The position numbers were made by a program, and so were the translations under genes. A stretch of DNA of 64,000 nt from an uncultured bacterium. GTDB lineage: Bacteria; Hydrothermota; Tepidihabitantia; Tepidihabitantales; Tepidihabitantaceae. Shown here piece after piece: positions 4,287-16,555 of this stretch. The DNA lies in NCBI GenBank assembly GCA_964590395.1, contig CAZPVT010000006.1, forward strand, positions 4,093 through 68,092. Reading direction: 5' to 3'. Positions within the stretch are counted from its first letter, which is position 1. Each line of letters opens with the position of its first letter. The notes beneath the pieces are model-generated. The model made no database searches, was not told the origin of the DNA, and saw nothing but the letters and a program-made list of their open reading frames with translations.

Positions 4287-7200
4287 GTGAACCGTCTTTT
4301 TGTTGTCTTGATGCTGATAGCCGGCATTGCACTGGCAGGCAATATCACCCGGACATTTAACTTTTCCCCTGATTTAATTAAACTTGGCACCCGGGACGGC
4401 TATACCACAGTTGAGCTCAACATGGCAGCCTGTCCTGGTAATCTGGGTGAGCCGGACCTGCCGGTCCTGCCCTACCAGGTGGTAATTCCGGCTGATGCGG
4501 AAGTTACCGGTCTGGAGATAATCTCGTATAAGGAAGAACCAATTCCAGGCACCTATAAGGTTATTCCGGTCCAGCATCCTATCCCCTGGAAAAAGGAGTA
4601 TCAACCGATGCCATTTGTTCCGCCTGACCCCCAGATTTACGCCCAAAATCAGCTCTGGCCCCAGCTACCTGCCCGGTTTGCCCATACCGGCAGTAAATCT
4701 GGCTATCGGATTGCCAGTTTCTGGGTTTATCCGGTCCGGTATAATCCGGTAACCGGCAAACTCTATGCGCTGAGCAGTATCACTATTCGGCTTAACTACC
4801 AATCCGGACTGCATCCTGTTCCCGCTTATACCGATTTACAGATCAAACTTTTTGGTGACCAGGTAAAGATGCTTGTCATCAATCCGGAAGAGGTTGACCG
4901 ATTCGCTCCACCCAAAAGGACAAAAAGTTACGGCTCACTCCTTCTTGAGCCTGGCACCTATGAGCACATCATTTTAACCGGTCAGCAGTTTGCAGATTCA
5001 CTTATCTGGCTACGCGACTGGCGGACCAAACTGGGTTGGCGCTCCAAAATCGTGATTCTTGAATCAATCTGCGCTACCTATCCGGGCAGAGACAATGCAG
5101 AAAAGATGCGCAACTTTATTAAAGACGCTGATACCACCTGGGGCACAATCTTTGTCTTCATCGCCCGACCTGACTATCCAGCAAACTACTATCGGATCGC
5201 GCGTGCTTATGGTTATGACTTTTTCTCGGATATGTACTTCTCGGACCTTGACGGCACCTGGGACAGAAATAATAACAACATCTTCGGTGAACCTGCGGAC
5301 TCGGTTGACGGCTATGCTGATGTCCACATCGGAATGATGACCTTAAACCAGTTCTCAGAAATTGCCAATGTCCGCAACAAGATTATGCGCTACGAAACCG
5401 CACCGGACACCACTGGCAACTGGTGGCATAAAATACTTTTGCCCAACGGCGTAGACTTCTCTGACAACTACAACGACTCCATTGCCAATGCCAGTCCAAC
5501 CCCGCCATATTTTGACCTGAAGATGTATTACTCGGGTAATGGCCAGGTTATCCCAACTCCCCAGCGCTACTGCGACTCTTTGAACTCCGGGTACACTTTC
5601 ACTTCGGTTATCGCACACGGTGACCCGGACTTATATGAACTTGGTGGTTATGTTACCAGCCAGATGATGCTCAATCTGACCAACATCAACCGTCTTAACT
5701 GCCTGACCGCGGTCTGCTGTCATACCGGTGAATGGGATGCCGGCTCAACCAATGGCGACTGTATAGCCGAAAATATGTTTAACCACGCACCAAACGGCTT
5801 TATCGGTGTAATGATGAACTCCCACTATGGCTGGATCAATGTTGCCGAAAAACTGAACTATGCGGTCGCCTACGGGTTTTTCGGATTCAGAACCGCTCGC
5901 AAAATCCATCAGGCAGAAATGCTCTCCTATGGCAGAGACTACTGGGTACCGGTAATCCTTGACTCCCAGAAGTACCGGATGGAAATAATGGAACGCAACC
6001 TGTTTGGTGAACCTGCCACCCCGATCTGGCGTGCCCGACCGTTTATTCCTGTGGTAAGCAAACCAACTTCAATCAACATTGGCAACAACATCCCGGTGAC
6101 CATAACTGTCCAGACCCCGGGTTTTGCGCCCGTGGAATCCGCAATGGTTGTCCTCCAGAAAACTAACGAAACTTTTGTCCGGGGCTGGACCAACTCTTCA
6201 GGACAGGTTACGATGCTGGTATCCTGTCCGACCCCGGGCTTTCTCAAACTCTCGGTCGTAGGTGCAAACAACATCCCCTATTTTGACTCAATCGTAGTTG
6301 TATCCAGCAGCAGGTATATTTCCTATCTCAAACACTATATCAACGACCCACCACCTGGTGGTAATGGCGACAGCATCATCAATCCCGGTGAATCGTTCCG
6401 GATTCCGATGTGGCTCAAGAATTACGGCAATCTGACCGCAAATAATGTAACCGCCCGGCTCCGCACCCGCACCGCTGGTGTTACCGTAACCGATTCAGTC
6501 AAAAACTTCGGTAACATTGCCGGTGGTGATTCAGCCTTTAACAGTCAGGGTTTTGGAATGACCGTTGCTAACGGTCTGCCCAACCGTTATCCCATCTCCT
6601 GTTCGCTTATCTGCAAAGATGCCCTGGACTCCACCTGGGTCTCATTTATCATCCTGTATGTCGGTGCCCCCGCAATTGACTTTGTTAATAAAACGGTAAA
6701 AGATTCAGCCTCCTCCCAGCCAAACGGCAGGCTTGACCCGGGTGAAACCGCTGACCTTGAAGTTACCCTCTGTAACTCTGGATTGGGTAATGCTTATAAT
6801 GTTCGGGCAGTTCTGCGCTCCGGTGATAGTAGATTGGTGGTCTCTGATTCGGTAGCACTCTACGGCACAATTCCGGCTGGTGCCAGCGCCACCAACCGTA
6901 CCGATCGCTTTACCCTGTTCGCCTCATCCTCAATCCCACCGGAAACACCAATTACCTGCACGCTCGCGGTATCGGCTGATAACGGCTACTATAGCCGGTC
7001 AACCTTTACAATTATCATCGCTGAAATGCGCCCGATTGACCCGATTCCGGACAACTCCAACCCGCCACTTTACTGGGCTTACGACGAGGTGGATACGCTC
7101 TATCCACATTATCCTGAGTTTGAATGGGTGGAGATTTACGGTATTGGCACCAGATTGAATCTGAGTGATGACCAGACAATAACCATTGACCTGCCCCCAT

Positions 7201-8006
7201 CATTTGGACCATTTATCTTCTATAATCAGCGCTACACCCAGATCTCCATCTGCTCCAACGGCTGGATTGCTCCTGGGTATACCACACTGACCACCTATGA
7301 TAACACCACACTTCCCAACACCTCTATGCCACCGCTGATTGCTGCGAACTGGGATGACCTTTACCCGCCCTACGGTGACAGTGTCTGGTATTACCATGAT
7401 ACCGCCAATCACCGGTTTATTATTGAGTGGGACTCGGTGTATTACTGGAACAGCACGCAATGGGAGAAGTTTGAAATAATCATTTATGATACCACGCTTG
7501 CCAGTGCAGATGGCAACTCCAGAATCGTTATTCAGTATCTTAGCGCAAATAAGGCAGGCAGTTCTGCAACCGTGGGAATTCAGGACCACACCCGGACCAG
7601 ATACATCCAGACACTTTACAACGGCTCATATCACCGTTGCGCCTCACCCTGGATTCCTAACCATGCGATAAAATTTTCCACTGATAGCCCCACCGGAGTT
7701 ACTGAACAGTTCGGTGCCTCACTCTCGGCTAAAGGCAAAATCCTCGCAATAGCACCCACCCATTTCCATCACACCACCACCATTAACTGGCTGGTGCCAA
7801 GAGCCGGTGAAGTAGAACTGAAGATATATGACCCTCTGGGCAGAGTTATTAAAACCCTGATCAAGGGAAAAATGCAACCGGGAACCTACTCAACGGTCTG
7901 GAATGGAACTGACGAAAACCGCAGGAAAGTTGCTAACGGCATCTACTTCATTCGGCTGACAACTCCGGATAACTCAGTAAAGGTAAAAACTGTCATCACC
8001 CGGTAA
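4287..8006 (+). CDS. secreted gingipain-like cysteine peptidase (C25 family) with C-terminal T9SS sorting domain
   Basis: Signal peptide, C25-like propeptide and catalytic region (VIAHGDPDLYE His region, TAVCCHTGEWD Cys region). Ig/CARDB-like middle domains. The last ~70 aa match a T9SS type-A CTD (KIYDPLGRVIKTL...NGIYFIRL). Confidence 0.75.
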   Translation: MNRLFVVLMLIAGIALAGNITRTFNFSPDLIKLGTRDGYTTVELNMAACPGNLGEPDLPVLPYQVVIPADAEVTGLEIISYKEEPIPGTYKVIPVQHPIPWKKEYQPMPFVPPDPQIYAQNQLWPQLPARFAHTGSKSGYRIASFWVYPVRYNPVTGKLYALSSITIRLNYQSGLHPVPAYTDLQIKLFGDQVKMLVINPEEVDRFAPPKRTKSYGSLLLEPGTYEHIILTGQQFADSLIWLRDWRTKLGWRSKIVILESICATYPGRDNAEKMRNFIKDADTTWGTIFVFIARPDYPANYYRIARAYGYDFFSDMYFSDLDGTWDRNNNNIFGEPADSVDGYADVHIGMMTLNQFSEIANVRNKIMRYETAPDTTGNWWHKILLPNGVDFSDNYNDSIANASPTPPYFDLKMYYSGNGQVIPTPQRYCDSLNSGYTFTSVIAHGDPDLYELGGYVTSQMMLNLTNINRLNCLTAVCCHTGEWDAGSTNGDCIAENMFNHAPNGFIGVMMNSHYGWINVAEKLNYAVAYGFFGFRTARKIHQAEMLSYGRDYWVPVILDSQKYRMEIMERNLFGEPATPIWRARPFIPVVSKPTSINIGNNIPVTITVQTPGFAPVESAMVVLQKTNETFVRGWTNSSGQVTMLVSCPTPGFLKLSVVGANNIPYFDSIVVVSSSRYISYLKHYINDPPPGGNGDSIINPGESFRIPMWLKNYGNLTANNVTARLRTRTAGVTVTDSVKNFGNIAGGDSAFNSQGFGMTVANGLPNRYPISCSLICKDALDSTWVSFIILYVGAPAIDFVNKTVKDSASSQPNGRLDPGETADLEVTLCNSGLGNAYNVRAVLRSGDSRLVVSDSVALYGTIPAGASATNRTDRFTLFASSSIPPETPITCTLAVSADNGYYSRSTFTIIIAEMRPIDPIPDNSNPPLYWAYDEVDTLYPHYPEFEWVEIYGIGTRLNLSDDQTITIDLPPSFGPFIFYNQRYTQISICSNGWIAPGYTTLTTYDNTTLPNTSMPPLIAANWDDLYPPYGDSVWYYHDTANHRFIIEWDSVYYWNSTQWEKFEIIIYDTTLASADGNSRIVIQYLSANKAGSSATVGIQDHTRTRYIQTLYNGSYHRCASPWIPNHAIKFSTDSPTGVTEQFGASLSAKGKILAIAPTHFHHTTTINWLVPRAGEVELKIYDPLGRVIKTLIKGKMQPGTYSTVWNGTDENRRKVANGIYFIRLTTPDNSVKVKTVITR

Positions 8007-8023: not shown

Positions 8024-8998
8024 CTACATCAAACTCCAGCCCCGCTCCAAATCTCTGACTGCTGATTCGTTAAAATCCGCACACCTTTTCAGCAGGTTAA
8101 CCACCATTTCCCTCTCTGAATTCTTTAATGAAAATTTATCCGGCTCACCCACCATTTGCTTAATTTGATCCAAATTATTAAATGAACGGGCAAACATCTC
8201 CCCTGCCTTATTCAAATACTGTGCCACCTCTTGCCAGCGCTTCGCCAACCGCCGGCAGAATCCAGCCGCCCACATCTGCAACTCCCAGTAACACATTAAA
8301 TTATAGATAAATCCAAGTTTATCAAACCGACACTTTGCCACCGCATCCGCCCAGGTGCGAAATGCGGTTGCACCATAAAAGTACTCCCCACTGAAGCAGG
8401 GAGCAAGACCACGCAGAAGTTTTGTCGCCCTGCCGATTGCTTCTCGGGCACATCTCTCTTGAACAACAGAAAAACTTTCCCCAAAGAAAATCCCTGCTAT
8501 CCGCCCGAGGGTTTTAAGTTCGTTGTATCTGATCTCCTGTCTAACACCGGCTTGTTTCTGAACCAGATAATATTGCTCACGATAGCCACAAACCAAACCA
8601 AACTCCGGTGCATCACCCGCGCCCCAGACAATACAGCAGTTACCGGAATCGATCTCCTCCTTTACCCGGGTAAAAAGTTCCATAAATAAATCATCCTCCC
8701 CACCCTCTACCGCTACCAGTTCGATTTCAATCCCCAGTGACCGCGTTCCCTCAACCAGAATATTCCAATCAAATTCAACTGGTCCGGTAGGTAGCAATTC
8801 CGGATGAATATTAACGATAAAGGCGTAACCGCTCATACCAGCCACATCGGTTAAATCGCATTTTATCCCCAGGGAACGCAAGATCGCGGTTACCACACCA
8901 ACATAACTCACCCATACATCAGAACAATCAACGTTTATGTCAATCACCTTCATCTCGCAAGAATTTTGGTTCACACCTATTTCCCCTTTCCCAGCCAC
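8024..8998 (-). CDS. hypothetical protein (possibly BtrH_N/DUF4872-like, unverified)
   Basis: 324-aa ORF with good coding character and no motif I can name confidently. Confidence 0.35.
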   Translation of the reverse strand: MAGKGEIGVNQNSCEMKVIDINVDCSDVWVSYVGVVTAILRSLGIKCDLTDVAGMSGYAFIVNIHPELLPTGPVEFDWNILVEGTRSLGIEIELVAVEGGEDDLFMELFTRVKEEIDSGNCCIVWGAGDAPEFGLVCGYREQYYLVQKQAGVRQEIRYNELKTLGRIAGIFFGESFSVVQERCAREAIGRATKLLRGLAPCFSGEYFYGATAFRTWADAVAKCRFDKLGFIYNLMCYWELQMWAAGFCRRLAKRWQEVAQYLNKAGEMFARSFNNLDQIKQMVGEPDKFSLKNSEREMVVNLLKRCADFNESAVRDLERGWSLM

Positions 8999-9554: not shown

Positions 9555-9587
9555 TAAAAAAGGGCGCCAGAAATACGGGCGCCCTTA
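9555..9587 (-). terminator. rho-independent terminator downstream of gdh (minus strand)
   Basis: A 9-bp GC-rich stem (AAGGGCGCC / GGCGCCCTT) followed on the minus strand by a TTTTTT run, immediately 3' of the 9618..10937 gene. Confidence 0.5.
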
Positions 9588-9617
9588 AAGAGCGGTTTTT
9601 ATAGTAAAATCAACCCA

Positions 9618-10937
9618 TTATGGGAAAATGCCCCGTTCCTTGTAGACCTTCTCCAGCCGCGCAAGAGCCACAATATATGCCGCTGTCCGCCAGTTGACCT
9701 TGAATTTCCTTGCCGTTTCTCTCACCCGCTGGTAACCACCGACTATCTTCTTGTACAACTTGCAGTCAACCTCCTGCAACTCCCAAAACTCGCTGCGCTT
9801 ATTCTGAAGCCACTCAAAGTAACTGACGATCACCCCCCCCGAATTGCAGAGAATATCAGGCAGAACATCAATTCCCCGTTTTGCCAGTATCTCATCACCT
9901 TCAGGTGTTGTTGGTCCATTCGCGCCTTCAGCAACCAGCCGAACGTTGAGCAAAGGTGTTGTTTCCGCAGTAATCTGGTTCTCAAGCGCTGCCGGAATAA
10001 AGATATCAGCCCGGGTGCGGAGGAATTCGGTATGAGTTATCATTTTTGCTTTCGGATAACCGTTTACGCCACCGTGTTCCTTTACATAACTGGCCAGCTC
10101 TTCAGGATCGATACCCTCAGGATTGCCAATAGCACCGGTAACATCTTCAACTGCCAGCAATCCGGCACCAAGCGGCTTCAGTAGGCGTGCTGCCCAAGAA
10201 CCAACATTGCCAAATCCCTGAACGATATAGGTCGCCTTACTAAGGTCAAAGTTGTTGTCCTTTGCCCATTCTCTGATTAGAAACACCACACCCTGACCAG
10301 TCGCCTTGTCCCGACCGACACTACCACCCGACTCAATCGGCTTGCCGGTTACAACACCCAAGCATCGCTGACGCTCAAACGCTGGCATCATTGACTGGTA
10401 AGTATCAAGAATCCAGGCCATTATCTGGGGGTTAGTATTAACATCCGGTGCCGGAATATCGTAATCAGCACCGATGGTATTACCCAGTGCATAAGTAAAG
10501 CGTCTGGTAATCCGCTCCAGTTCTGAAAACGAGTATTTACTCGGGTCTAACTGAATACCGCCTTTGGCTCCGCCAAATGGAATATTTACGATTGCCGACT
10601 TCCAGGTCATCCAGGTTGCCAGTGCCCGGACCTCATCGATGTCAACCGCCGGATGATATCTCAGCCCGCCTTTGAAAGGACCAAGCGCGTTGTTATGTTG
10701 CACCCGATAGCCGGTAAACACCTCGATTCTCCCGTCATCCATCTTAACTGGAAAATGGACGATAATCTCATTCATCGTCGTCCCCAATATCTTTCGGACA
10801 CCGACATCAAGCTTCATCAGATCAGCAGCCTTGTTAAACTGTCTAATTACATCCTCATAGACACTGTGTCGCTTCTGTTGCCTCAAGTTATTCCGAAACT
10901 CACGAATTTTGGCACGTCCTTTTGTTGTCACCGCCAT
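9618..10937 (-). CDS. gdh: Glu/Leu/Phe/Val-family glutamate dehydrogenase (439 aa type)
   Basis: GGAKGGI active-site motif plus an NAD(P)-binding Rossmann motif (GFGNVGSWAA). Confidence 0.85.
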   Translation of the reverse strand: MAVTTKGRAKIREFRNNLRQQKRHSVYEDVIRQFNKAADLMKLDVGVRKILGTTMNEIIVHFPVKMDDGRIEVFTGYRVQHNNALGPFKGGLRYHPAVDIDEVRALATWMTWKSAIVNIPFGGAKGGIQLDPSKYSFSELERITRRFTYALGNTIGADYDIPAPDVNTNPQIMAWILDTYQSMMPAFERQRCLGVVTGKPIESGGSVGRDKATGQGVVFLIREWAKDNNFDLSKATYIVQGFGNVGSWAARLLKPLGAGLLAVEDVTGAIGNPEGIDPEELASYVKEHGGVNGYPKAKMITHTEFLRTRADIFIPAALENQITAETTPLLNVRLVAEGANGPTTPEGDEILAKRGIDVLPDILCNSGGVIVSYFEWLQNKRSEFWELQEVDCKLYKKIVGGYQRVRETARKFKVNWRTAAYIVALARLEKVYKERGIFP

Positions 10938-10952
10938 TTGGCACCTCGCTAT

Positions 10953-11303
10953 TTACTGATATTCTTCACAGTGCCACACCCCGATTTCTTTGTTACGGAT
11001 GGCACAATCCTTACGGTTTTCACAGTTCACACATAAACCCTTATACTCATCCCATTCGCGCATCTCTTCTAATGTTGGAAACATCTCAACGGCAGTTTCC
11101 TCGGTGATTGTCGGCACTGTCGAGTCGAACTCCTCGCAAAACACCACCGGCTGCTTGTTCCTTACTCTGTAACCGCAGTGCGCAGCGTTATTACAAGTAA
11201 GACATAACCCCTGCTCTTCGGGCGGCACCACTCGGAGCTTTTTAGCCTTTATTTCACTTAATTTTTGGGCCGCTCTTTTGGTAGTTCTTGTAGAAACAGA
11301 CAT
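10953..11303 (-). CDS. small cysteine-rich protein with two repeated C-x2-C-x5-C-x11-12-C modules (putative metal/Fe-S binding)
   Basis: Two near-identical modules (GLCLTCNNAAHCGYRVRNK...FCEEF and GLCVNCENRKDCAIRNK...HCEEY). A perfect AGGAGG RBS sits 8 nt upstream, and a sigma54 promoter about 60 nt upstream. Confidence 0.55.
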   Translation of the reverse strand: MSVSTRTTKRAAQKLSEIKAKKLRVVPPEEQGLCLTCNNAAHCGYRVRNKQPVVFCEEFDSTVPTITEETAVEMFPTLEEMREWDEYKGLCVNCENRKDCAIRNKEIGVWHCEEYQ

Positions 11304-11376
11304 TTTAATCCTCCTTTTTTTACATTAGTTTTTCACCGCTACCCCAATTCCCTTTTCTTCCTCTTTTTTATTAAAA

Positions 11377-11392
11377 TGCAATTACCGTGCCA
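11377..11392 (-). promoter_or_regulatory. sigma54 (-24/-12) promoter
   Basis: The minus strand reads TGGCAC-GGTAA-TTGCA, an exact match to the RpoN consensus. It lies ~75 nt upstream of the Cys-rich gene ATG and is adjacent to an NtrC-family activator gene. Confidence 0.6.
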
Positions 11393-11565
11393 CATAGTTA
11401 ATTTCAGATAAAAATATATGGATTAATAAGGCTAACTTATTAATTGTTAATTAGTTACAAAATTAAAACGGCAGTCGTATTATTATCTCTTGACGAGGTT
11501 CGGACCGAATTGCACAGGGGAAAAACCCCCCACGTGGATATAAATTCCCCGATTTACAATTGAGG

Positions 11566-12912
11566 TTAGACCTTAGGTTTTTTTCGCAGCTTGATTCTCA
11601 GTGTTTTACGGTCGATGTTCAGAATCTTTGCCGCCTTCGTTAGATTACCGTCTACACTATTAAGAACCTGGCGAATGTAATCCTGCTCGGCTTCGGCGAG
11701 CGTCCGATTTAGTTTAAGTTCACTGGAAAGAGAGAATCTCATATATGGCGGCAAATCGGTAATATCTATTATTTCCCCATCAACCATTATCAATAGACGT
11801 TGGATAAGATTTTCAAGCTCCCGGACATTACCAGGCCATTCATATCGTTTGAACGTCTCGAGTACCTGGTCGGAAAGACGGGGTATGGACCTACCCATTT
11901 CTTGGGCGAACTTTTCTAAGAAATATCTTGCTAATAAAAATATATCATCGCCACGCTCGCGCAACGGAGGTAAAGATATGTTAAGTACATTCAAACGAAA
12001 GAACAGATCTTCTCGAAAAACCCCCTTTTGCACCAAACTTAATAGATCTTTGTTGGTTGCCACGATGATCCGAACATCAACTTTATAAGACTTCGAATCA
12101 CCGACCATTCTTACCTCTTTGTCCTGCAATACCCTTAAAAGTTTAACTTGCATTGATGGGGTAGTTTCACTTATTTCATCAAGAAATATCGAACCGCCAT
12201 CTGCCGTCTGAAAGAACCCTGCCCTGGTTTCATTTGCTCCCGTAAACGCCCCTTTCACATATCCAAACAACTCGCTTTCCAATAAACTCTCAGGAATACC
12301 TCCACAGTTAACTGGAACAAATGGTGCTGAAGCCCGTTTACTTGAATAATGTATTGCCCGTGCTACCAACTCTTTACCGGTTCCACTTTCACCCGTAATT
12401 AAAACAGTAGCCGATACTTTCGCCGCCCGTTCGATTGTAGCAAATACCTTTCTCATTACCTGTGATTCCCCAAGCAGACCGGGATAGACCTTTTGCACCG
12501 ATAACTTACTGATTGCCGCCGACCGTCGAATCCGAAGCTTATCCAGTGCCTGCTTCACTGCTTTGAACAACTCTTCATCAGTAAACGGCTTGGCTAAATA
12601 CTCCTCTGCCCCAGTCTTCACCGCCTGCACCGCACTCTCAACCGTCGCGTAGCCAGTAATCACCATTACTTCGGTATCTCTTAGGTTTTCTCGAACATAT
12701 CTTACCAAATCCAGCCCGCTCACTCCGGGCATCTTCAGGTCGGTTACTACTAAATCTACCGGTATCTCTTGTAAAATCTGCAAAGCCTCATTGACATTTC
12801 TCGCAGTATGAACCTTATAACCCTGAGATGTTAAATTCCTTTCCAGCACCTCAAGAGTTTCTATAATATCGTCGACAACTAACAAAGTTGCTTGCCGATT
12901 CTTCTCGATCAT
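11566..12912 (-). CDS. sigma54-dependent response regulator (NtrC family: REC + AAA+ sigma54-interaction + Fis HTH)
   Basis: Receiver domain with the conserved Asp region. AAA+ motifs GESGTGKE, GAFTGA and ESELFGY. C-terminal Fis-type HTH. Confidence 0.9.
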   Translation of the reverse strand: MIEKNRQATLLVVDDIIETLEVLERNLTSQGYKVHTARNVNEALQILQEIPVDLVVTDLKMPGVSGLDLVRYVRENLRDTEVMVITGYATVESAVQAVKTGAEEYLAKPFTDEELFKAVKQALDKLRIRRSAAISKLSVQKVYPGLLGESQVMRKVFATIERAAKVSATVLITGESGTGKELVARAIHYSSKRASAPFVPVNCGGIPESLLESELFGYVKGAFTGANETRAGFFQTADGGSIFLDEISETTPSMQVKLLRVLQDKEVRMVGDSKSYKVDVRIIVATNKDLLSLVQKGVFREDLFFRLNVLNISLPPLRERGDDIFLLARYFLEKFAQEMGRSIPRLSDQVLETFKRYEWPGNVRELENLIQRLLIMVDGEIIDITDLPPYMRFSLSSELKLNRTLAEAEQDYIRQVLNSVDGNLTKAAKILNIDRKTLRIKLRKKPKV

Positions 12913-14631
12913 TTATTTATTTCCTGATGATTTTATCGGTAATACGACCTCGAATCTACTCCCTTTCCCTGGTTCTGACTCTACATTTATTGAACCACCG
13001 TGAGCCACCACAATGCCATGCGCAACCGATAAACCCAAACCAGTCCCCTCACCTACTGGCTTGGTTGTAAAAAATGGAATAAATATCCGGGCTTTCACTT
13101 CATCGGTCATGCCAATGCCGGTATCTTCGATAATTAAAGAGATTACAGTATCTTTTGGAATCGTAGCAATTTTTAATCTCCCGCCATTGGGCATTGCCTG
13201 AATTGCATTAACAACCAGATTAACTAATACCTGGTGCAACTGTGTCGGGTCAGCTGAAATTTCGGGTAAATCTGATGCCAGGTCAAAGCTTAATTCAATA
13301 CCTGCCTTAGCACATCGGCTTTTTAGAAAATAAAGTCCGTCTATTACCAGATTATTCAAATTAACCGCAACCCGTTGTGGCGGTTGCACCCGGGCAAAGA
13401 ACATCAGTTTATTGATAACCTCCCGGGCATGGAGTGCAGCGGATACTATCCGCTCGATATCCTTCACCGCCTGTTTCGGAATTTCCGGCATCTTTACCGC
13501 CAATTGGGCAAAACCCAAGATGTTTGCCAGAGGCTCGTTTAATTCGTGCGCCACACCCGCTGCCAACTGTCCGATCGTAGCGAGACGATCCGCATGTCGA
13601 AGTTGATGTTCTAAACGAGTTTTCTCCTGCTTTGTCTCCCGTCGTTCGACGAAAATACCAATCTCCCGAGCTATCGCATCAATCAGTTTCCTTTCCTCTT
13701 TAAGAAATGGTCCCTCATCAAGTGTCGGAAGTTCTTTGTGGTAAAAAACCTCCGTTAAACCACGTTCCTGCCCCCGAACATAAATTGGTGCCGACTGACG
13801 ATGAAACACTTCACCATATCCGGGAGTAGCATATACTTTTCCATCCAGTTTAATCTGAGCAGAAGCAATCTCTGAGTAAAGCCAAGCCGGTGGCAATTTC
13901 GCCACGGCTGCCTGAAGCGCATCATTCAATTCCATCTCGTCCTTACTTAAAATCCGGTCAAGTTCATAAAGGCAGGTCAGTTCCTTTATCCGCTCTCGCA
14001 ATGCCGCCTGAGCTTGCCGATCTGCCCAAGCAACACCCAATGTCTGTGCTACCCCTTGATAAAATTCGACCTCGTAACTTTTGAAATAACCGGGCTGGCG
14101 GCTTTTAAGAAAAATTAGCCCGTGGCTCTTCTCAGTAATCGAGAAAGTCAATATCGCGACCGAACGGTAGTCCCCCGGTATTTTAATCAGCCGGCCATTT
14201 ATCTGTACCGGCTTGGTAGCATCCGAAGTCCAGAAAGCACCGTTGGCAGTAAAACCGGGTAGACCGGGATCATATTTGCCCGTGACCAGATCCCGACAGA
14301 ATTCAGTAAATTGCACATCCTCAACTTCATCCCCCGGGAAAATCTCATCTGAGTTCAAATTAGACCTGGGGGCTATGCTAAAGAAAAACCTATCCCTTGT
14401 CGAACGATCTAAAATCCCTCGATAATAACGGACACTTTCGTTAATACGTATCTCAATCTCATCACAATCCGAAAAATCCAGAAATTCATTTATTACAATC
14501 CGGGTAAATTCATTTCTTGGTACCCCCAGATTAGCAACGCGTAGAATACGTCGGGAAAGTGCACAGAACTCTTCGGCGAGTTTCTGTCCATAGCCTCGTC
14601 GCCGATGATTGTCTTTTCCTTTGTTGCTCAT
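12913..14631 (-). CDS. cytoplasmic sensor histidine kinase (GAF-like N-terminal sensor region + HisKA + HATPase_c)
   Basis: H-box HELNEPL, and an N/G1/G2 box (IEDTGIGM, GTGLGLS). No TM helices. The stop abuts the RR start. Confidence 0.85.
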   Translation of the reverse strand: MSNKGKDNHRRRGYGQKLAEEFCALSRRILRVANLGVPRNEFTRIVINEFLDFSDCDEIEIRINESVRYYRGILDRSTRDRFFFSIAPRSNLNSDEIFPGDEVEDVQFTEFCRDLVTGKYDPGLPGFTANGAFWTSDATKPVQINGRLIKIPGDYRSVAILTFSITEKSHGLIFLKSRQPGYFKSYEVEFYQGVAQTLGVAWADRQAQAALRERIKELTCLYELDRILSKDEMELNDALQAAVAKLPPAWLYSEIASAQIKLDGKVYATPGYGEVFHRQSAPIYVRGQERGLTEVFYHKELPTLDEGPFLKEERKLIDAIAREIGIFVERRETKQEKTRLEHQLRHADRLATIGQLAAGVAHELNEPLANILGFAQLAVKMPEIPKQAVKDIERIVSAALHAREVINKLMFFARVQPPQRVAVNLNNLVIDGLYFLKSRCAKAGIELSFDLASDLPEISADPTQLHQVLVNLVVNAIQAMPNGGRLKIATIPKDTVISLIIEDTGIGMTDEVKARIFIPFFTTKPVGEGTGLGLSVAHGIVVAHGGSINVESEPGKGSRFEVVLPIKSSGNK

Positions 14632-14684
14632 ATAGTTTAATGATCTAATTATTTAGATTGCCTTAATAGTTTCCGCATTAAGAA

Positions 14685-15035
14685 TGGAGGCGGCGGGAAT
14701 CGAACCCGCGTCCGAAGCGTTCAGTACCCAGGTTCTACATAGTTAGTCAGTCTATATTTCTCATCGCCTACTAAGCCGACTGACAGGCGGTAGCCGACCA
14801 GCCCCAGTAAAAATCCGGCTGCCATCCTGAGGCACAATAACAGCCTTGATCACCCTACTATACCCGCAACCAGCGCCGGGTGAAACTCGCTGGTCCAGGG
14901 GCTACCTTGCTTTAGGAAGCCAGTGCATAGCTGCTATTGGCAGCTGTAGTTCCTCTGTTGTTATTAACGAGGCAACAGAGGAGCCTCGCTATGCCCCTGA
15001 GTCCCTCAGTCACTTCGTCGAAACCATTCGCCCCC
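14685..15035 (-). ncRNA. ssrA: tmRNA (SsrA)
   Basis: 5' end GGGGGCGAAUGGUUUCGACG and 3' tRNA-like end GGACGCGGGUUCGAUUCCCGCCGCCUCCA on the minus strand. The acceptor stem pairs (GGGGGCG / CGCCUCC). An internal tag-like frame ends in a stop. Confidence 0.85.

Positions 15036-15100: not shown

Positions 15101-16555
<1,455 letters not shown>

What the first reader, a model, noticed from the sequence alone, without database searches (positions are those of the whole stretch)
9555..14631. Self-contained sigma54 circuit: cytoplasmic GAF-type histidine kinase + NtrC-type activator beside a perfect -24/-12 promoter that precedes a Cys-rich mini-protein and glutamate dehydrogenase
The activator gene ends 260 nt upstream of an exact TGGCAC-N5-TTGCA element (11377-11392, minus strand). 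About 60 nt downstream are an AGGAGG RBS and the 116-aa Cys-rich ORF, followed 15 nt later by gdh and then a strong hairpin+T6 terminator (9555-9587). In the AT-rich spacer upstream of the promoter lies an 8-bp perfect inverted repeat, TTAATAAG-N5-CTTATTAA (11423-11443), a candidate enhancer/IHF site. This suggests nitrogen- or redox-responsive control of gdh via an uncharacterised metal-binding co-transcribed protein.
Basis: partly seen in the sequence, partly recalled or inferred. Interest (0 to 1): 0.6.

Follow-up and report, generated by a model that had tools for sequence, protein, structure and literature searches.

The report
Conserved sigma-54 switch for glutamate enzymes
A sensor kinase, a sigma-54 activator and an unstudied eight-cysteine mini-protein form a gene cassette, conserved in about a dozen bacterial phyla, that sits in front of glutamate-making enzymes; the circuit type is familiar, but the mini-protein and the activator's DNA site have not been described.

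Summary
TGGCACggtaaTTGCA (11392-11377, minus) is the only exact -24/-12 match in 64 kb (0.02 expected). It precedes an AGGAGG site, a 116-aa 8-Cys ORF, gdh 15 nt later, and a 9-bp GC hairpin with T6.

Comparison with 80 related loci from about 13 phyla shows a conserved cassette:
- The GAF-type kinase and REC-AAA+-HTH activator lie upstream in 70 of 74 loci.
- A sigma-54-like site lies upstream of the Cys gene in 70% of loci, against 1.6% of control windows.
- The next gene is always GDH (26 of 76) or a NuoE/NuoF(-GltD)/GltB-FMN complex (50 of 76).

It is a pair of 15-bp dyads, GGGGA-N5-TCCCC, at 11550-11517, just after the activator's stop codon. This motif occurs in 69 of 71 loci and changes where the activator's recognition helix changes.

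The Cys protein is real (dN/dS 0.10; about 2000 clusters at 50% identity). It consists of one to three 28-aa modules, C-x2-C-x5-C-x11-12-C-E-E-[FY]. It has no Pfam, NCBIfam or PDB relative, and AlphaFold gave no confident fold. Its cofactor and role are unknown; I favour a metal-dependent regulatory partner.

Verdict: a new variant of a known kind of circuit.

The parts
12913..14631 (-). Cytoplasmic sensor histidine kinase, 572 aa. Domain order: GAF domain (about res 20-210), a second GAF-like mini-domain (about res 211-335, motif 'KELTCLY...DEGPFLKEER'), HisKA, HATPase_c.
   Evidence: HisKA and HATPase_c by Pfam. GAF_2 hit in 27 of 35 orthologues, mapping to the end of domain 1; the window copy itself gives no hit. 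Second domain: weak GAF hits in 3 of 14 sequences and no PDB relative. No transmembrane segment.
11566..12912 (-). Sigma-54 enhancer-binding response regulator, 448 aa: REC, AAA+ (GAFTGA), Fis-type HTH (recognition helix IDRKTLR).
   Evidence: Pfam Response_reg, Sigma54_activat, AAA_lid_14 and HTH_8. GAFTGA motif found. Below the NtrC, AtoC and ZraR equivalog cut-offs. Orthologues are 56-82% identical across phyla.
11517..11550 (-). Candidate enhancer (UAS): two 15-bp dyads, GGGGAatttaTATCC-acgt-GGGGGgttttTCCCC. It starts 15 nt after the activator's stop codon, and its centre lies about 140 nt upstream of the -24 element.
   Evidence: Family consensus GGGGAatTTCTCCCCggtGGttCaaatcTCCCC. Present in 69 of 71 loci above the 99th percentile of control windows, at a median of 155 nt upstream of -24. 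Conserved in the nearest relatives. Dyad sequence changes in loci whose recognition helix differs.
11422..11445 (.). Its left part, AATTAATAAGTTA (11445-11433), is an IHF-like site with one mismatch.
   Evidence: Only the left part is conserved in L081-L083. Chance level 3.8-12.6%. IHF-like sites are modestly enriched in related spacers.
11377..11392 (-). Sigma-54 promoter, TGGCACggtaaTTGCA (GG at 11391-11390, GC at 11379-11378). Predicted transcription start near 11366.
   Evidence: Unique exact match, 0.02 expected. Conserved in relatives. The transcription start is inferred, not mapped.
11310..11315 (-). Ribosome-binding site AGGAGG, 6 nt before the ATG.
   Evidence: Conserved in the alignment.
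10953..11303 (-). 116-aa protein with a basic N-terminal tail and two 4-Cys modules: GLCLTCNNAAHCG...VVFCEEF and GLCVNCENRKDCA...GVWHCEEY.
   Evidence: 168 homologues. 1963 clusters at 50% identity with E<=1e-3. Eight invariant Cys. dN/dS 0.10 against L081. No Pfam, NCBIfam or PDB relative.
9618..10937 (-). Glutamate dehydrogenase, 439 aa, of the archaeal/Thermotoga-like hexameric type. Co-transcribed, with a 15-nt gap after the Cys ORF.
   Evidence: Pfam ELFV_dehydrog_N and ELFV_dehydrog. Best NCBIfam match GdhA_Arch, 483 bits against a cut-off of 750.
9556..9586 (-). Intrinsic terminator: 9-bp GC-rich stem, 9-nt loop, T6.

Best explanation
This is a conserved three-gene regulatory cassette that switches on enzymes converting 2-oxoglutarate to glutamate.

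Steps shown by sequence and comparison:
- A cytoplasmic kinase with a tandem GAF-like sensor and a REC-AAA+-HTH activator are encoded immediately upstream.
- Directly after the activator's stop codon lie two GGGGA-N5-TCCCC dyads.
- About 140 nt further downstream lies a perfect -24/-12 sigma-54 promoter.
- That promoter is followed by one transcription unit: the 8-Cys mini-protein, gdh and a terminator.

Inferred mechanism:
- The kinase senses a cytoplasmic metabolite or redox signal. 2-Oxoglutarate, glutamate or glutamine are the obvious candidates.
- It phosphorylates the activator, which oligomerises on the dyads.
- The activator contacts sigma-54 RNA polymerase by looping the AT-rich spacer, perhaps with help from an IHF-like protein at 11445-11433.
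- ATP hydrolysis then opens the promoter.

The mini-protein:
- It is an obligatory member of the transcription unit, whatever enzyme follows.
- It consists of independent 28-aa four-cysteine modules, each of which most probably holds one metal centre. The C-x2-C-x5-C spacing favours a [4Fe-4S] cluster over zinc.
- I think it most likely feeds back on the kinase or activator, or adds a redox or iron input. GlnK does this for NtrB, PspA for PspF and FleN for FleQ. This last step is the weakest.
For: Promoter:
- Unique exact match in the window, 0.02 expected.
- A site scoring at least 9 of 11 lies upstream of the Cys gene in 70% of 78 loci. The figure is 1.6% for control windows and 1.3% for the antisense strand.
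- No sigma-70-like site on the coding strand in 11304-11565.

Synteny:
- Kinase and activator lie upstream on the same strand in 70 of 74 loci.
- The next gene is GDH in 26 of 76 loci and NuoE-like in 50 of 76. Pfam confirms the NuoE, NuoF::GltD, Fer2/Fer4 and GltB-FMN assignments.
- Starting from four kinase orthologues leads to the same small ORF each time.

Enhancer:
- Found in 69 of 71 loci, at a fixed distance (median 155 nt) and fixed position after the activator gene.
- Conserved in the nearest relatives.
- Loci with an altered recognition helix have altered dyads: GINRKTLR, GINRKTLH and DIARATLR go with TACC or CCTC half-sites.
- Loci without a nearby kinase and activator still keep the dyads and the promoter.

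Activator: complete REC, AAA+ and HTH_8 domains with GAFTGA.

Mini-protein:
- Eight invariant Cys and dN/dS 0.10.
- Variants with one to three modules show the module is the functional unit.
- Its core sequence differs little between GDH-type and NuoE-type loci (identity 0.46, 0.43 and 0.41 within and between classes). That fits a partner common to both contexts.
Against: - No transcript data, no mapped transcription start, and no rpoN gene in the window.
- The window's own dyads are degenerate: the first right half is TATCC and the linker is 4 nt rather than 3. The gapless matrix scores them 5.9, against a control 99th percentile of 3.0 and typical values of 35-48.
- Nothing shows which way the signal acts or what the signal is.
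- For the mini-protein there is no cofactor evidence and no usable structure (pLDDT 54.6 and 59.2).
- In three loci the order is promoter-GDH-Cys-NuoE. The Cys gene there stays next to NuoE rather than next to the promoter, which fits an enzyme-directed role at least as well as a regulatory one.
Confidence: 0.8

Rival explanations
1. The mini-protein is directed at the enzymes, not at the regulators. It would be a dedicated small iron-sulfur electron carrier, an assembly factor or an activity modulator for the glutamate-forming enzymes. Examples of the last kind are the small inhibitors IF7 and IF17 of cyanobacterial glutamine synthetase (own knowledge). The circuit upstream of it works as described in the best explanation.
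For: - The next gene is always GDH or the NuoE-like subunit of an iron-sulfur-rich NuoE/NuoF/GltD/GltB complex.
- In L027, L037 and L040 the order is promoter-GDH-Cys-NuoE, so the Cys gene stays glued to NuoE.
- Copies at operons that have no nearby kinase or activator (L031, L051) show that it travels with the target operon.
Against: - GDH needs no electron carrier and has no metal cluster, yet 26 of 76 loci, including this window, pair the protein with GDH alone.
- The core sequence barely differs between GDH-type and NuoE-type loci. That is unexpected if it docks onto two unrelated enzymes.
Confidence: 0.3
2. The AT-rich palindrome at 11443-11423 is the activator's binding site. The GGGGA/TCCCC dyads would then be something else, such as a terminator-like hairpin closing the kinase-activator transcript.
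For: - A perfect 9-bp inverted repeat lies between the activator gene and the promoter.
- The dyads are themselves self-complementary and lie right after a stop codon.
Against: - The right arm is lost in relatives whose Cys protein is 83% identical.
- No such palindrome recurs in other loci, and its chance level is 4-13%.
- It lies only about 40 nt from the -24 element, unusually close for an enhancer.
- The dyads are conserved in sequence, not merely in pairing potential, across about 13 phyla. They have no following T run and track the recognition helix.
Confidence: 0.05
3. The adjacent activator does not control this promoter. Another enhancer-binding protein elsewhere in the genome does, and the adjacency is only a matter of synteny.
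For: - Enhancer-binding proteins can act in trans.
- Some loci (L031, L032, L051, L068) have the Cys operon and a sigma-54 promoter without a neighbouring kinase or activator.
Against: - Adjacency holds in 70 of 74 loci across phyla.
- The motif sits at the 3' end of the activator gene, and helix and dyad change together.
- Only one GAFTGA protein is encoded in the 64 kb.
Confidence: 0.07

Closest known systems
NtrB-NtrC (GlnL-GlnG) with sigma-54 at glnAp2 and glnK-amtB in enterobacteria (own knowledge of the textbook system)
   Same: - A cytoplasmic kinase and a REC-AAA+-HTH_8 activator.
- Tandem dyad enhancer about 100-150 nt upstream of a -24/-12 promoter.
- Targets in ammonium and glutamate assimilation.
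- The first gene of a target operon (glnK) is a small signalling protein that feeds back on the kinase.
   Different: - The activator and kinase score below the NtrC and NtrB equivalog cut-offs: 416.8 against 558.6 bits, and 94.5 against 240 bits.
- The sensor is a tandem GAF-like domain, not PAS.
- The enhancer is GGGGA-N5-TCCCC, not TGCACC-N5-GGTGCA.
- The small protein is an 8-Cys repeat protein, not a PII trimer.
- The kinase-activator pair is not downstream of its own target promoter.
GnfL-GnfM of Geobacter sulfurreducens (PMC2995071)
   Same: A two-component sigma-54 system outside the Proteobacteria proper. Footprinting and reporter fusions showed that it acts directly on an RpoN-dependent gdhA promoter.
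   Different: - GnfL is a 363-aa NtrB-like kinase with a PAS domain.
- GnfM is a master regulator of nitrogen fixation and represses gdhA during fixation.
- That paper does not mention cysteine (0 occurrences of the word in its text) and describes no small Cys-rich companion gene.
RocR / sigma-L control of rocG (catabolic GDH) in Bacillus subtilis (own knowledge; PMC12316311 notes sigma-54-linked GDH genes in Bacillota)
   Same: A GDH gene transcribed from a -24/-12 promoter under a dedicated enhancer-binding protein.
   Different: RocR is a one-component PAS activator that responds to arginine and ornithine. There is no kinase and no mini-protein, and the enhancer is different.
Anti-activators or co-regulators encoded in sigma-54 operons: PspA-PspF, FleN-FleQ (PMC8528422), GlnK-NtrB
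   Same: A small protein made from the sigma-54-dependent operon, or alongside it, that adjusts the activator or kinase. This is the logic I propose for the Cys protein.
   Different: There is no sequence relationship. The interaction is untested here. None of these proteins is cysteine-rich.
C-x2-C-x5-C iron-sulfur motifs of WhiB-like proteins, FNR and endonuclease III/MutY (own knowledge)
   Same: The same C-x2-C-x5-C spacing plus one distal Cys. Module 2 even carries G-V-W after the third Cys, as WhiB1 does (alignment).
   Different: There is no detectable homology: hhalign probability 0.8%, and Pfam WhiB hits in only 6 of 32 members at E>=0.096. The fourth Cys lies on the other side of the motif. 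The proteins here are tandem repeats and occur outside the Actinobacteria.

Membership tests
Sigma-54 (-24/-12) promoter | GG and GC dinucleotides 10 nt apart within the TGGCAC-N5-TTGCW consensus | tested here: met
   11 of 11 consensus positions at 11392-11377. Unique in the window, 0.02 expected.
Sigma-54 (-24/-12) promoter | Correct strand and position upstream of a gene, conserved in orthologous loci | tested here: met
   74 nt upstream of the ATG. A site scoring at least 9 of 11 in 70% of 78 loci, against 1.6% of controls.
Sigma-54 (-24/-12) promoter | rpoN present in the genome; transcription start about 12 nt downstream of the GC | not testable with these tools
   No RpoN-box motif in the 64 kb. 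The rest of the genome and transcript data are not available.
Bacterial enhancer-binding protein, NtrC-type response regulator | REC domain, AAA+ sigma-54 interaction domain with GAFTGA, and a Fis-type HTH | tested here: met
   Pfam E-values 1e-27, 4e-70 and 1e-11. GAFTGA at about 12252.
NtrC (NR-I) proper | Score above the curated equivalog cut-off of TIGR01818 or NF008176 | tested here: not met
   416.8 against 558.6 bits, and 347.8 against 620 bits.
NtrB (NR-II) proper | Score above the NF008293 cut-off | tested here: not met
   94.5 against 240 bits, matching the kinase core only.
GAF-domain sensor kinase | Significant match to a GAF profile in the N-terminal sensor region | tested here: inconclusive
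   The window protein gives no GAF hit at E<=1. Of 35 orthologues that are 49-82% identical, 27 hit GAF_2 (best 1.5e-8), mapping to the end of domain 1. The family is GAF-type; this copy is too diverged to show it alone.
Glutamate dehydrogenase (ELFV family) | ELFV_dehydrog_N and ELFV_dehydrog domains | tested here: met
   E-values 7e-57 and 1.5e-70. Substrate and cofactor specificity were not tested, and the score is below the GdhA_Arch equivalog cut-off.
WhiB-like (Wbl) iron-sulfur proteins | Detectable sequence or profile homology to Wbl proteins | tested here: not met
   hhalign probability 0.8% against WhiB1 (the recalled WhiB1 sequence was verified against PDB 5OAY). Only faint Pfam hits.
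Wbl / FNR / EndoIII-type [4Fe-4S] site | Four Cys ligands including a C-x2-C-x5-C triad, and a bound cluster | not testable with these tools
   The motif is present twice and invariant. The cofactor can only be shown biochemically. The AlphaFold models are too poor to judge geometry.
Intrinsic terminator | GC-rich hairpin followed directly by a U run | tested here: met
   9-bp stem and T6 at 9586-9556; -22.3 kcal/mol, z-score only -2.1 against shuffles.
IHF-assisted sigma-54 promoter | WATCAANNNNTTR site between the enhancer and the promoter | tested here: inconclusive
   One site with one mismatch at 11445-11433, conserved in three near relatives. Family-wide enrichment is 18 of 71 against 9.6 +/- 2.8. 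The presence of IHF in this organism is unknown.

The most novel reading that the evidence does not exclude
The 28-aa four-cysteine module defines a new class of small iron-sulfur (or other metal) sensor protein. This protein would be the third component of a widespread sigma-54 two-component system. It is made from the promoter it controls and binds the kinase's GAF-like sensor or the activator. In that way it would tie glutamate synthesis to the redox, oxygen or iron-sulfur status of the cell in many anaerobic phyla.
Probability: 0.3. Interest if true: 0.75.

Novelty: new variant of a known kind. Interest (0 to 1): 0.6.

Why it matters
Control of glutamate synthesis is worked out mainly for Proteobacteria (NtrBC, Nac), Firmicutes and cyanobacteria. 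This cassette appears to be the equivalent switch in WOR-3, Zixibacteria, Planctomycetota, Ignavibacteria, Verrucomicrobiota, Latescibacterota, Anaerolineales, Acidobacteriota and several deltaproteobacterial groups. Most of these lineages are uncultured.

The work yields four things:
- A testable enhancer motif, which allows the regulon to be predicted in hundreds of metagenome-assembled genomes.
- A link between GDH and an unusual NuoE/NuoF(-GltD)/GltB-FMN complex as interchangeable targets.
- A large family of about 2000 clusters of small cysteine-repeat proteins that has no annotation at all.
- An experimentally accessible host, Syntrophorhabdus aromaticivorans UI.

Tried and rejected
- Structure of the mini-protein. 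Two AlphaFold runs, with 32 and 108 sequences, gave pLDDT 54.6 and 59.2. I ran no fold search because the matches would be meaningless.
- Family searches for the mini-protein. A PDB profile search found nothing at E<=10. Pfam and NCBIfam found nothing.
- WhiB homology. Rejected on hhalign probability 0.8%.
- Cluster names. All members are labelled 'hypothetical protein'.
- Class test. I asked whether the Cys protein sorts by the downstream enzyme. The effect is weak (0.46, 0.43 and 0.41) and not decisive.
- Known RNA elements in the leader. Rfam finds only the tmRNA.
- A recurrent 'TTAGC(C)' word between enhancer and promoter occurs in 10 of 71 loci and in none of the background regions. It is not position-locked, so I did not pursue it.
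- AT palindrome as the enhancer. Rejected.
- Second kinase domain. No PDB relative and only weak GAF hits.
- Literature. Five full-text searches found no description of this cassette or protein. The library does not cover subscription journals.
- Desulfovibrio sigma-54 regulome paper. None of the searched terms (glutamate, glutamine, GGGGA, cysteine) occurs in its text, so I found nothing equivalent there.


Full report
**What is in the window**

All genes of the finding lie on the minus strand.
- A 572-aa histidine kinase (14631-12913) runs directly into a 448-aa response regulator (12912-11566); the two ORFs abut with no gap.
- A 262-nt intergenic region follows.
- Then come a 116-aa ORF with eight cysteines (11303-10953) and, 15 nt later, a 439-aa glutamate dehydrogenase (10937-9618).
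- The unit ends with a hairpin, AAGGGCGCC-9 nt-GGCGCCCTT, and a T6 run at 9586-9556. It folds to -22.3 kcal/mol, though the z-score against shuffles is only -2.1.

Pfam supports the gene assignments. The regulator has REC, Sigma54_activat, AAA_lid_14 and HTH_8 domains and carries GAFTGA. The dehydrogenase has both ELFV domains.

TGGCACggtaaTTGCA at 11392-11377 is the only exact match to the sigma-54 consensus in 64 kb, against 0.02 expected. AGGAGG lies 6 nt before the ATG of the Cys ORF. No sigma-70-like site lies on the coding strand between the regulator gene and the Cys ORF.

One number is wrong: the regulator gene ends 173 nt, not 260 nt, upstream of the -24 element.

**The arrangement is a conserved cassette**

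- The Cys protein has 168 homologues in the word-indexed search.
- An exhaustive profile search found 1963 clusters at 50% identity with E<=1e-3. The 150 best are all small proteins of 89-224 aa.
- A scan of one genome per species found at least 557 loci. The best 80 come from WOR-3, Zixibacteria, Planctomycetota, Ignavibacteria, Verrucomicrobiota, Latescibacterota, Anaerolineales, Myxococcales, Syntrophobacteraceae, Terriglobia, Omnitrophota, Fibrobacterota and the isolate Syntrophorhabdus aromaticivorans UI.
- By tblastn, 70 of 74 loci with enough upstream sequence have the same kinase and regulator on the same strand just upstream. Regulator identity is 56-82%.
- In all 76 loci with enough downstream sequence, the next gene is either GDH (26) or a NuoE-like gene (50).
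- The NuoE-like gene is followed by NuoF, often fused to a GltD-like reductase, then a 2Fe-2S/4Fe-4S protein and a protein carrying the glutamate-synthase FMN domain (Pfam).
- Starting from four kinase orthologues leads back to the same small ORF each time.

The window's organism is a WOR-3 bacterium. An identical kinase and near-identical Cys proteins carry that label.

**The sigma-54 promoter is part of the cassette**

A site with GG-N10-GC and at least 9 of 11 consensus positions lies within 300 nt upstream of the Cys gene in 70% of 78 loci. The figure is 1.6% for 4730 control windows and 1.3% for the antisense strand of the same regions.

In three loci with the order GDH-Cys-NuoE, the promoter sits upstream of GDH instead.

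**The real enhancer candidate**

Aligning the upstream regions on the promoter revealed a shared motif just after the regulator's stop codon. It is two 15-bp dyads joined by 3 bp, with consensus GGGGAatTTCTCCCCggtGGttCaaatcTCCCC.
- A matrix built from the motif scores above the 99th percentile of 5096 control windows in 69 of 71 loci.
- Its centre lies a median of 155 nt upstream of the -24 element.
- In the window it is GGGGAatttaTATCC-acgt-GGGGGgttttTCCCC at 11550-11517. This is a degenerate copy with a 4-nt linker, scoring 5.9 against a control threshold of 3.0.
- The motif is conserved in the nearest relatives.
- The regulator's recognition helix, GIDRKTLR, is almost invariant. The loci where it differs have correspondingly different half-sites: L047 (GINRKTLR) and L061 (DIARATLR) have GGTA...TACC, and L052 (GINRKTLH) has GAGG...CCTC. 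This co-variation is the best available evidence that this regulator binds these dyads.
- Two loci that lack a neighbouring kinase and regulator (L031, L051) keep both the dyads and the promoter, so those copies can be controlled in trans. L032 and L068, which also lack the pair, keep the promoter, but no clear dyads were found by the pattern search.

- It exists, and is 9 bp per arm.
- Repeats of 8 bp or more arise in 12.6% of shuffles of this region, and 9 bp or more in 3.8%.
- Its right arm is already gone in relatives whose Cys protein is 83% identical.
- Its left part, AATTAATAAGTTA (11445-11433), is conserved there and matches the IHF consensus with one mismatch.
- IHF-like sites are modestly enriched in the spacers of the family: 18 of 71 against 9.6 +/- 2.8.

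An architectural site is therefore possible. An enhancer at this position is unlikely.

**The kinase**
- It has no hydrophobic segment.
- Its own sequence gives no GAF hit, but 27 of 35 orthologues do, over the end of the first sensor domain.
- A second domain of about 125 aa (residues 211-335, 'KELTCLY...DEGPFLKEER') has no Pfam or PDB relative beyond weak GAF hits.
- That domain also occurs twice in a GAF-HTH_8 protein (P0194).
- It also forms the N-terminus of a 1069-aa protein with PPDK_N and nucleotidyltransferase domains. That protein is encoded right after Cys-GDH in Syntrophorhabdus, and an equivalent 1090-aa ORF beginning with the same KELxCLY motif follows Cys-GDH in the Planctomycetota locus L075.

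Neither the kinase nor the regulator reaches the NtrB or NtrC equivalog cut-offs.

**The Cys protein**
- It is under purifying selection: dN/dS 0.10 against L081.
- It has a variable basic tail, a variable linker and two copies of a 28-aa module, G-L-C-x2-C-x5-C-x11-12-C-E-E-[FY]. All eight Cys are invariant in 108 sequences.
- Family members with three modules, or with only one, show that the module is the unit. Each module therefore probably binds its own metal centre through four Cys.
- The C-x2-C-x5-C spacing is that of the [4Fe-4S] sites of FNR, WhiB-like proteins and endonuclease III (own knowledge). Six of 32 members give faint Pfam WhiB hits.
- Profile comparison with WhiB1 is nevertheless insignificant, at probability 0.8%. 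This is a resemblance of motif, not membership.
- AlphaFold gave no confident model, and the PDB holds no relative.
- The core sequence differs little between GDH-type and NuoE-type loci.

**How it most likely works**

Shown: the gene order, the promoter, the dyads, the transcription unit, and the conservation of all of them.

Inferred:
- The kinase senses a cytoplasmic signal and phosphorylates the regulator.
- The regulator assembles on the dyads and activates sigma-54 polymerase across the AT-rich spacer (69% AT, against 52% for the window).
- The cell then makes the Cys protein and GDH from one mRNA.

The direction of GDH (assimilation or glutamate breakdown) and the signal are unknown. 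Because the alternative targets carry GltD and GltB-FMN domains, I favour a role in making glutamate from 2-oxoglutarate.

For the Cys protein I favour a regulatory partner that feeds back on the kinase or regulator or adds a redox or iron input. GlnK, PspA and FleN are precedents for that logic. A Desulfovibrio sigma-54 activator that uses an iron-sulfur cluster for redox sensing (OrpR, PMC8359166) shows that such an input to sigma-54 control exists. The main rival is an enzyme-directed role. It is supported by the Cys gene's constant adjacency to GDH or NuoE, including the three loci with the order GDH-Cys-NuoE.

**Comparison with known systems**

The circuit works like NtrBC. Precedents for sigma-54-dependent gdh exist in Geobacter (GnfL/GnfM, PMC2995071) and in Bacillus (RocR-rocG, own knowledge; PMC12316311).

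It is not a member of those specific families. The sensor domains, the enhancer sequence and the constant 8-Cys companion all differ. Five literature searches found no description of the cassette.

I rate it a new variant of a known kind, with interest 0.6.

Noticed in passing
window 14682-15035 (-): A tmRNA gene (Rfam 164.9 bits) lies between the second gdh and the kinase gene, ending about 50 nt before the kinase's ATG. ARAGORN reports the tag peptide as AMHWLPKAR. Another frame reads AANSSYALAS* (14944-14912), which looks like a normal tmRNA tag. Little room is left for a kinase promoter.
   Followed up: partly
window 15101-16543 (-): A second glutamate dehydrogenase, of a different type from the first (the two share only about 29-32% identity by tblastn in related loci), lies just upstream of the tmRNA gene. 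It has no sigma-54 site or dyads of its own. The order gdh2, kinase, regulator, Cys, gdh1, M23 peptidase is kept in other WOR-3 loci (L002, L081). This suggests one constitutive and one inducible isoenzyme.
   Followed up: partly
window 12913-14631, residues 211-335 of the kinase; L051:7869-11078; P0194: An unannotated sensor domain of about 125 aa ('KELxCLY...DEGPFLKEER', weakly GAF-like) occurs in the kinase. It occurs twice in a GAF-HTH_8 protein. It also forms the N-terminus of a PPDK_N plus nucleotidyltransferase protein encoded right after Cys-GDH in Syntrophorhabdus, and an equivalent ORF with the same motif follows Cys-GDH in L075. The last architecture hints at post-translational control of GDH.
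   Followed up: partly
L035:6367-11128, L047:6406-11473 and about 50 other loci: The alternative target operon encodes a NuoE-like protein with a Cys-rich C-terminal extension, NuoF (often fused to a GltD-like reductase), a 2Fe-2S/4Fe-4S protein and a protein with only the FMN domain of glutamate synthase. In L047 the operon ends there, with no amidotransferase or GXGXG domain. It may be an NADH-linked, ammonia-using glutamate synthase, resembling Stn-type complexes.
   Followed up: partly
window 4287-8006 (+): A 1239-aa gingipain-like protease (Propeptide_C25, Peptidase_C25) with a C-terminal FlgD_ig-type sorting domain lies near the cassette. This fits a protein-degrading lifestyle and raises the question whether the inducible GDH is catabolic.
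   Followed up: partly
window 8024-8998 (-): A 324-aa ORF with no Pfam or NCBIfam match overlaps the end of the M23 peptidase gene. It is conserved at 49-53% identity after M23 in several WOR-3 loci (L002, L003, L006, L009).
   Followed up: no
L084:9385-9738: In one Zixibacteria chromosome the small ORF after the regulator gene carries only the C-terminal Cys module behind an unrelated N-terminus. This is either a one-module variant or a frameshift in the assembly.
   Followed up: no
related loci, 40-70 nt upstream of the -24 element: The word TTAGC(C) recurs between enhancer and promoter in 10 of 71 loci and never in the background regions. It includes the centre of the window's palindrome (aagTTAGCctt). 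Its position is not fixed and its meaning is unknown.
   Followed up: partly
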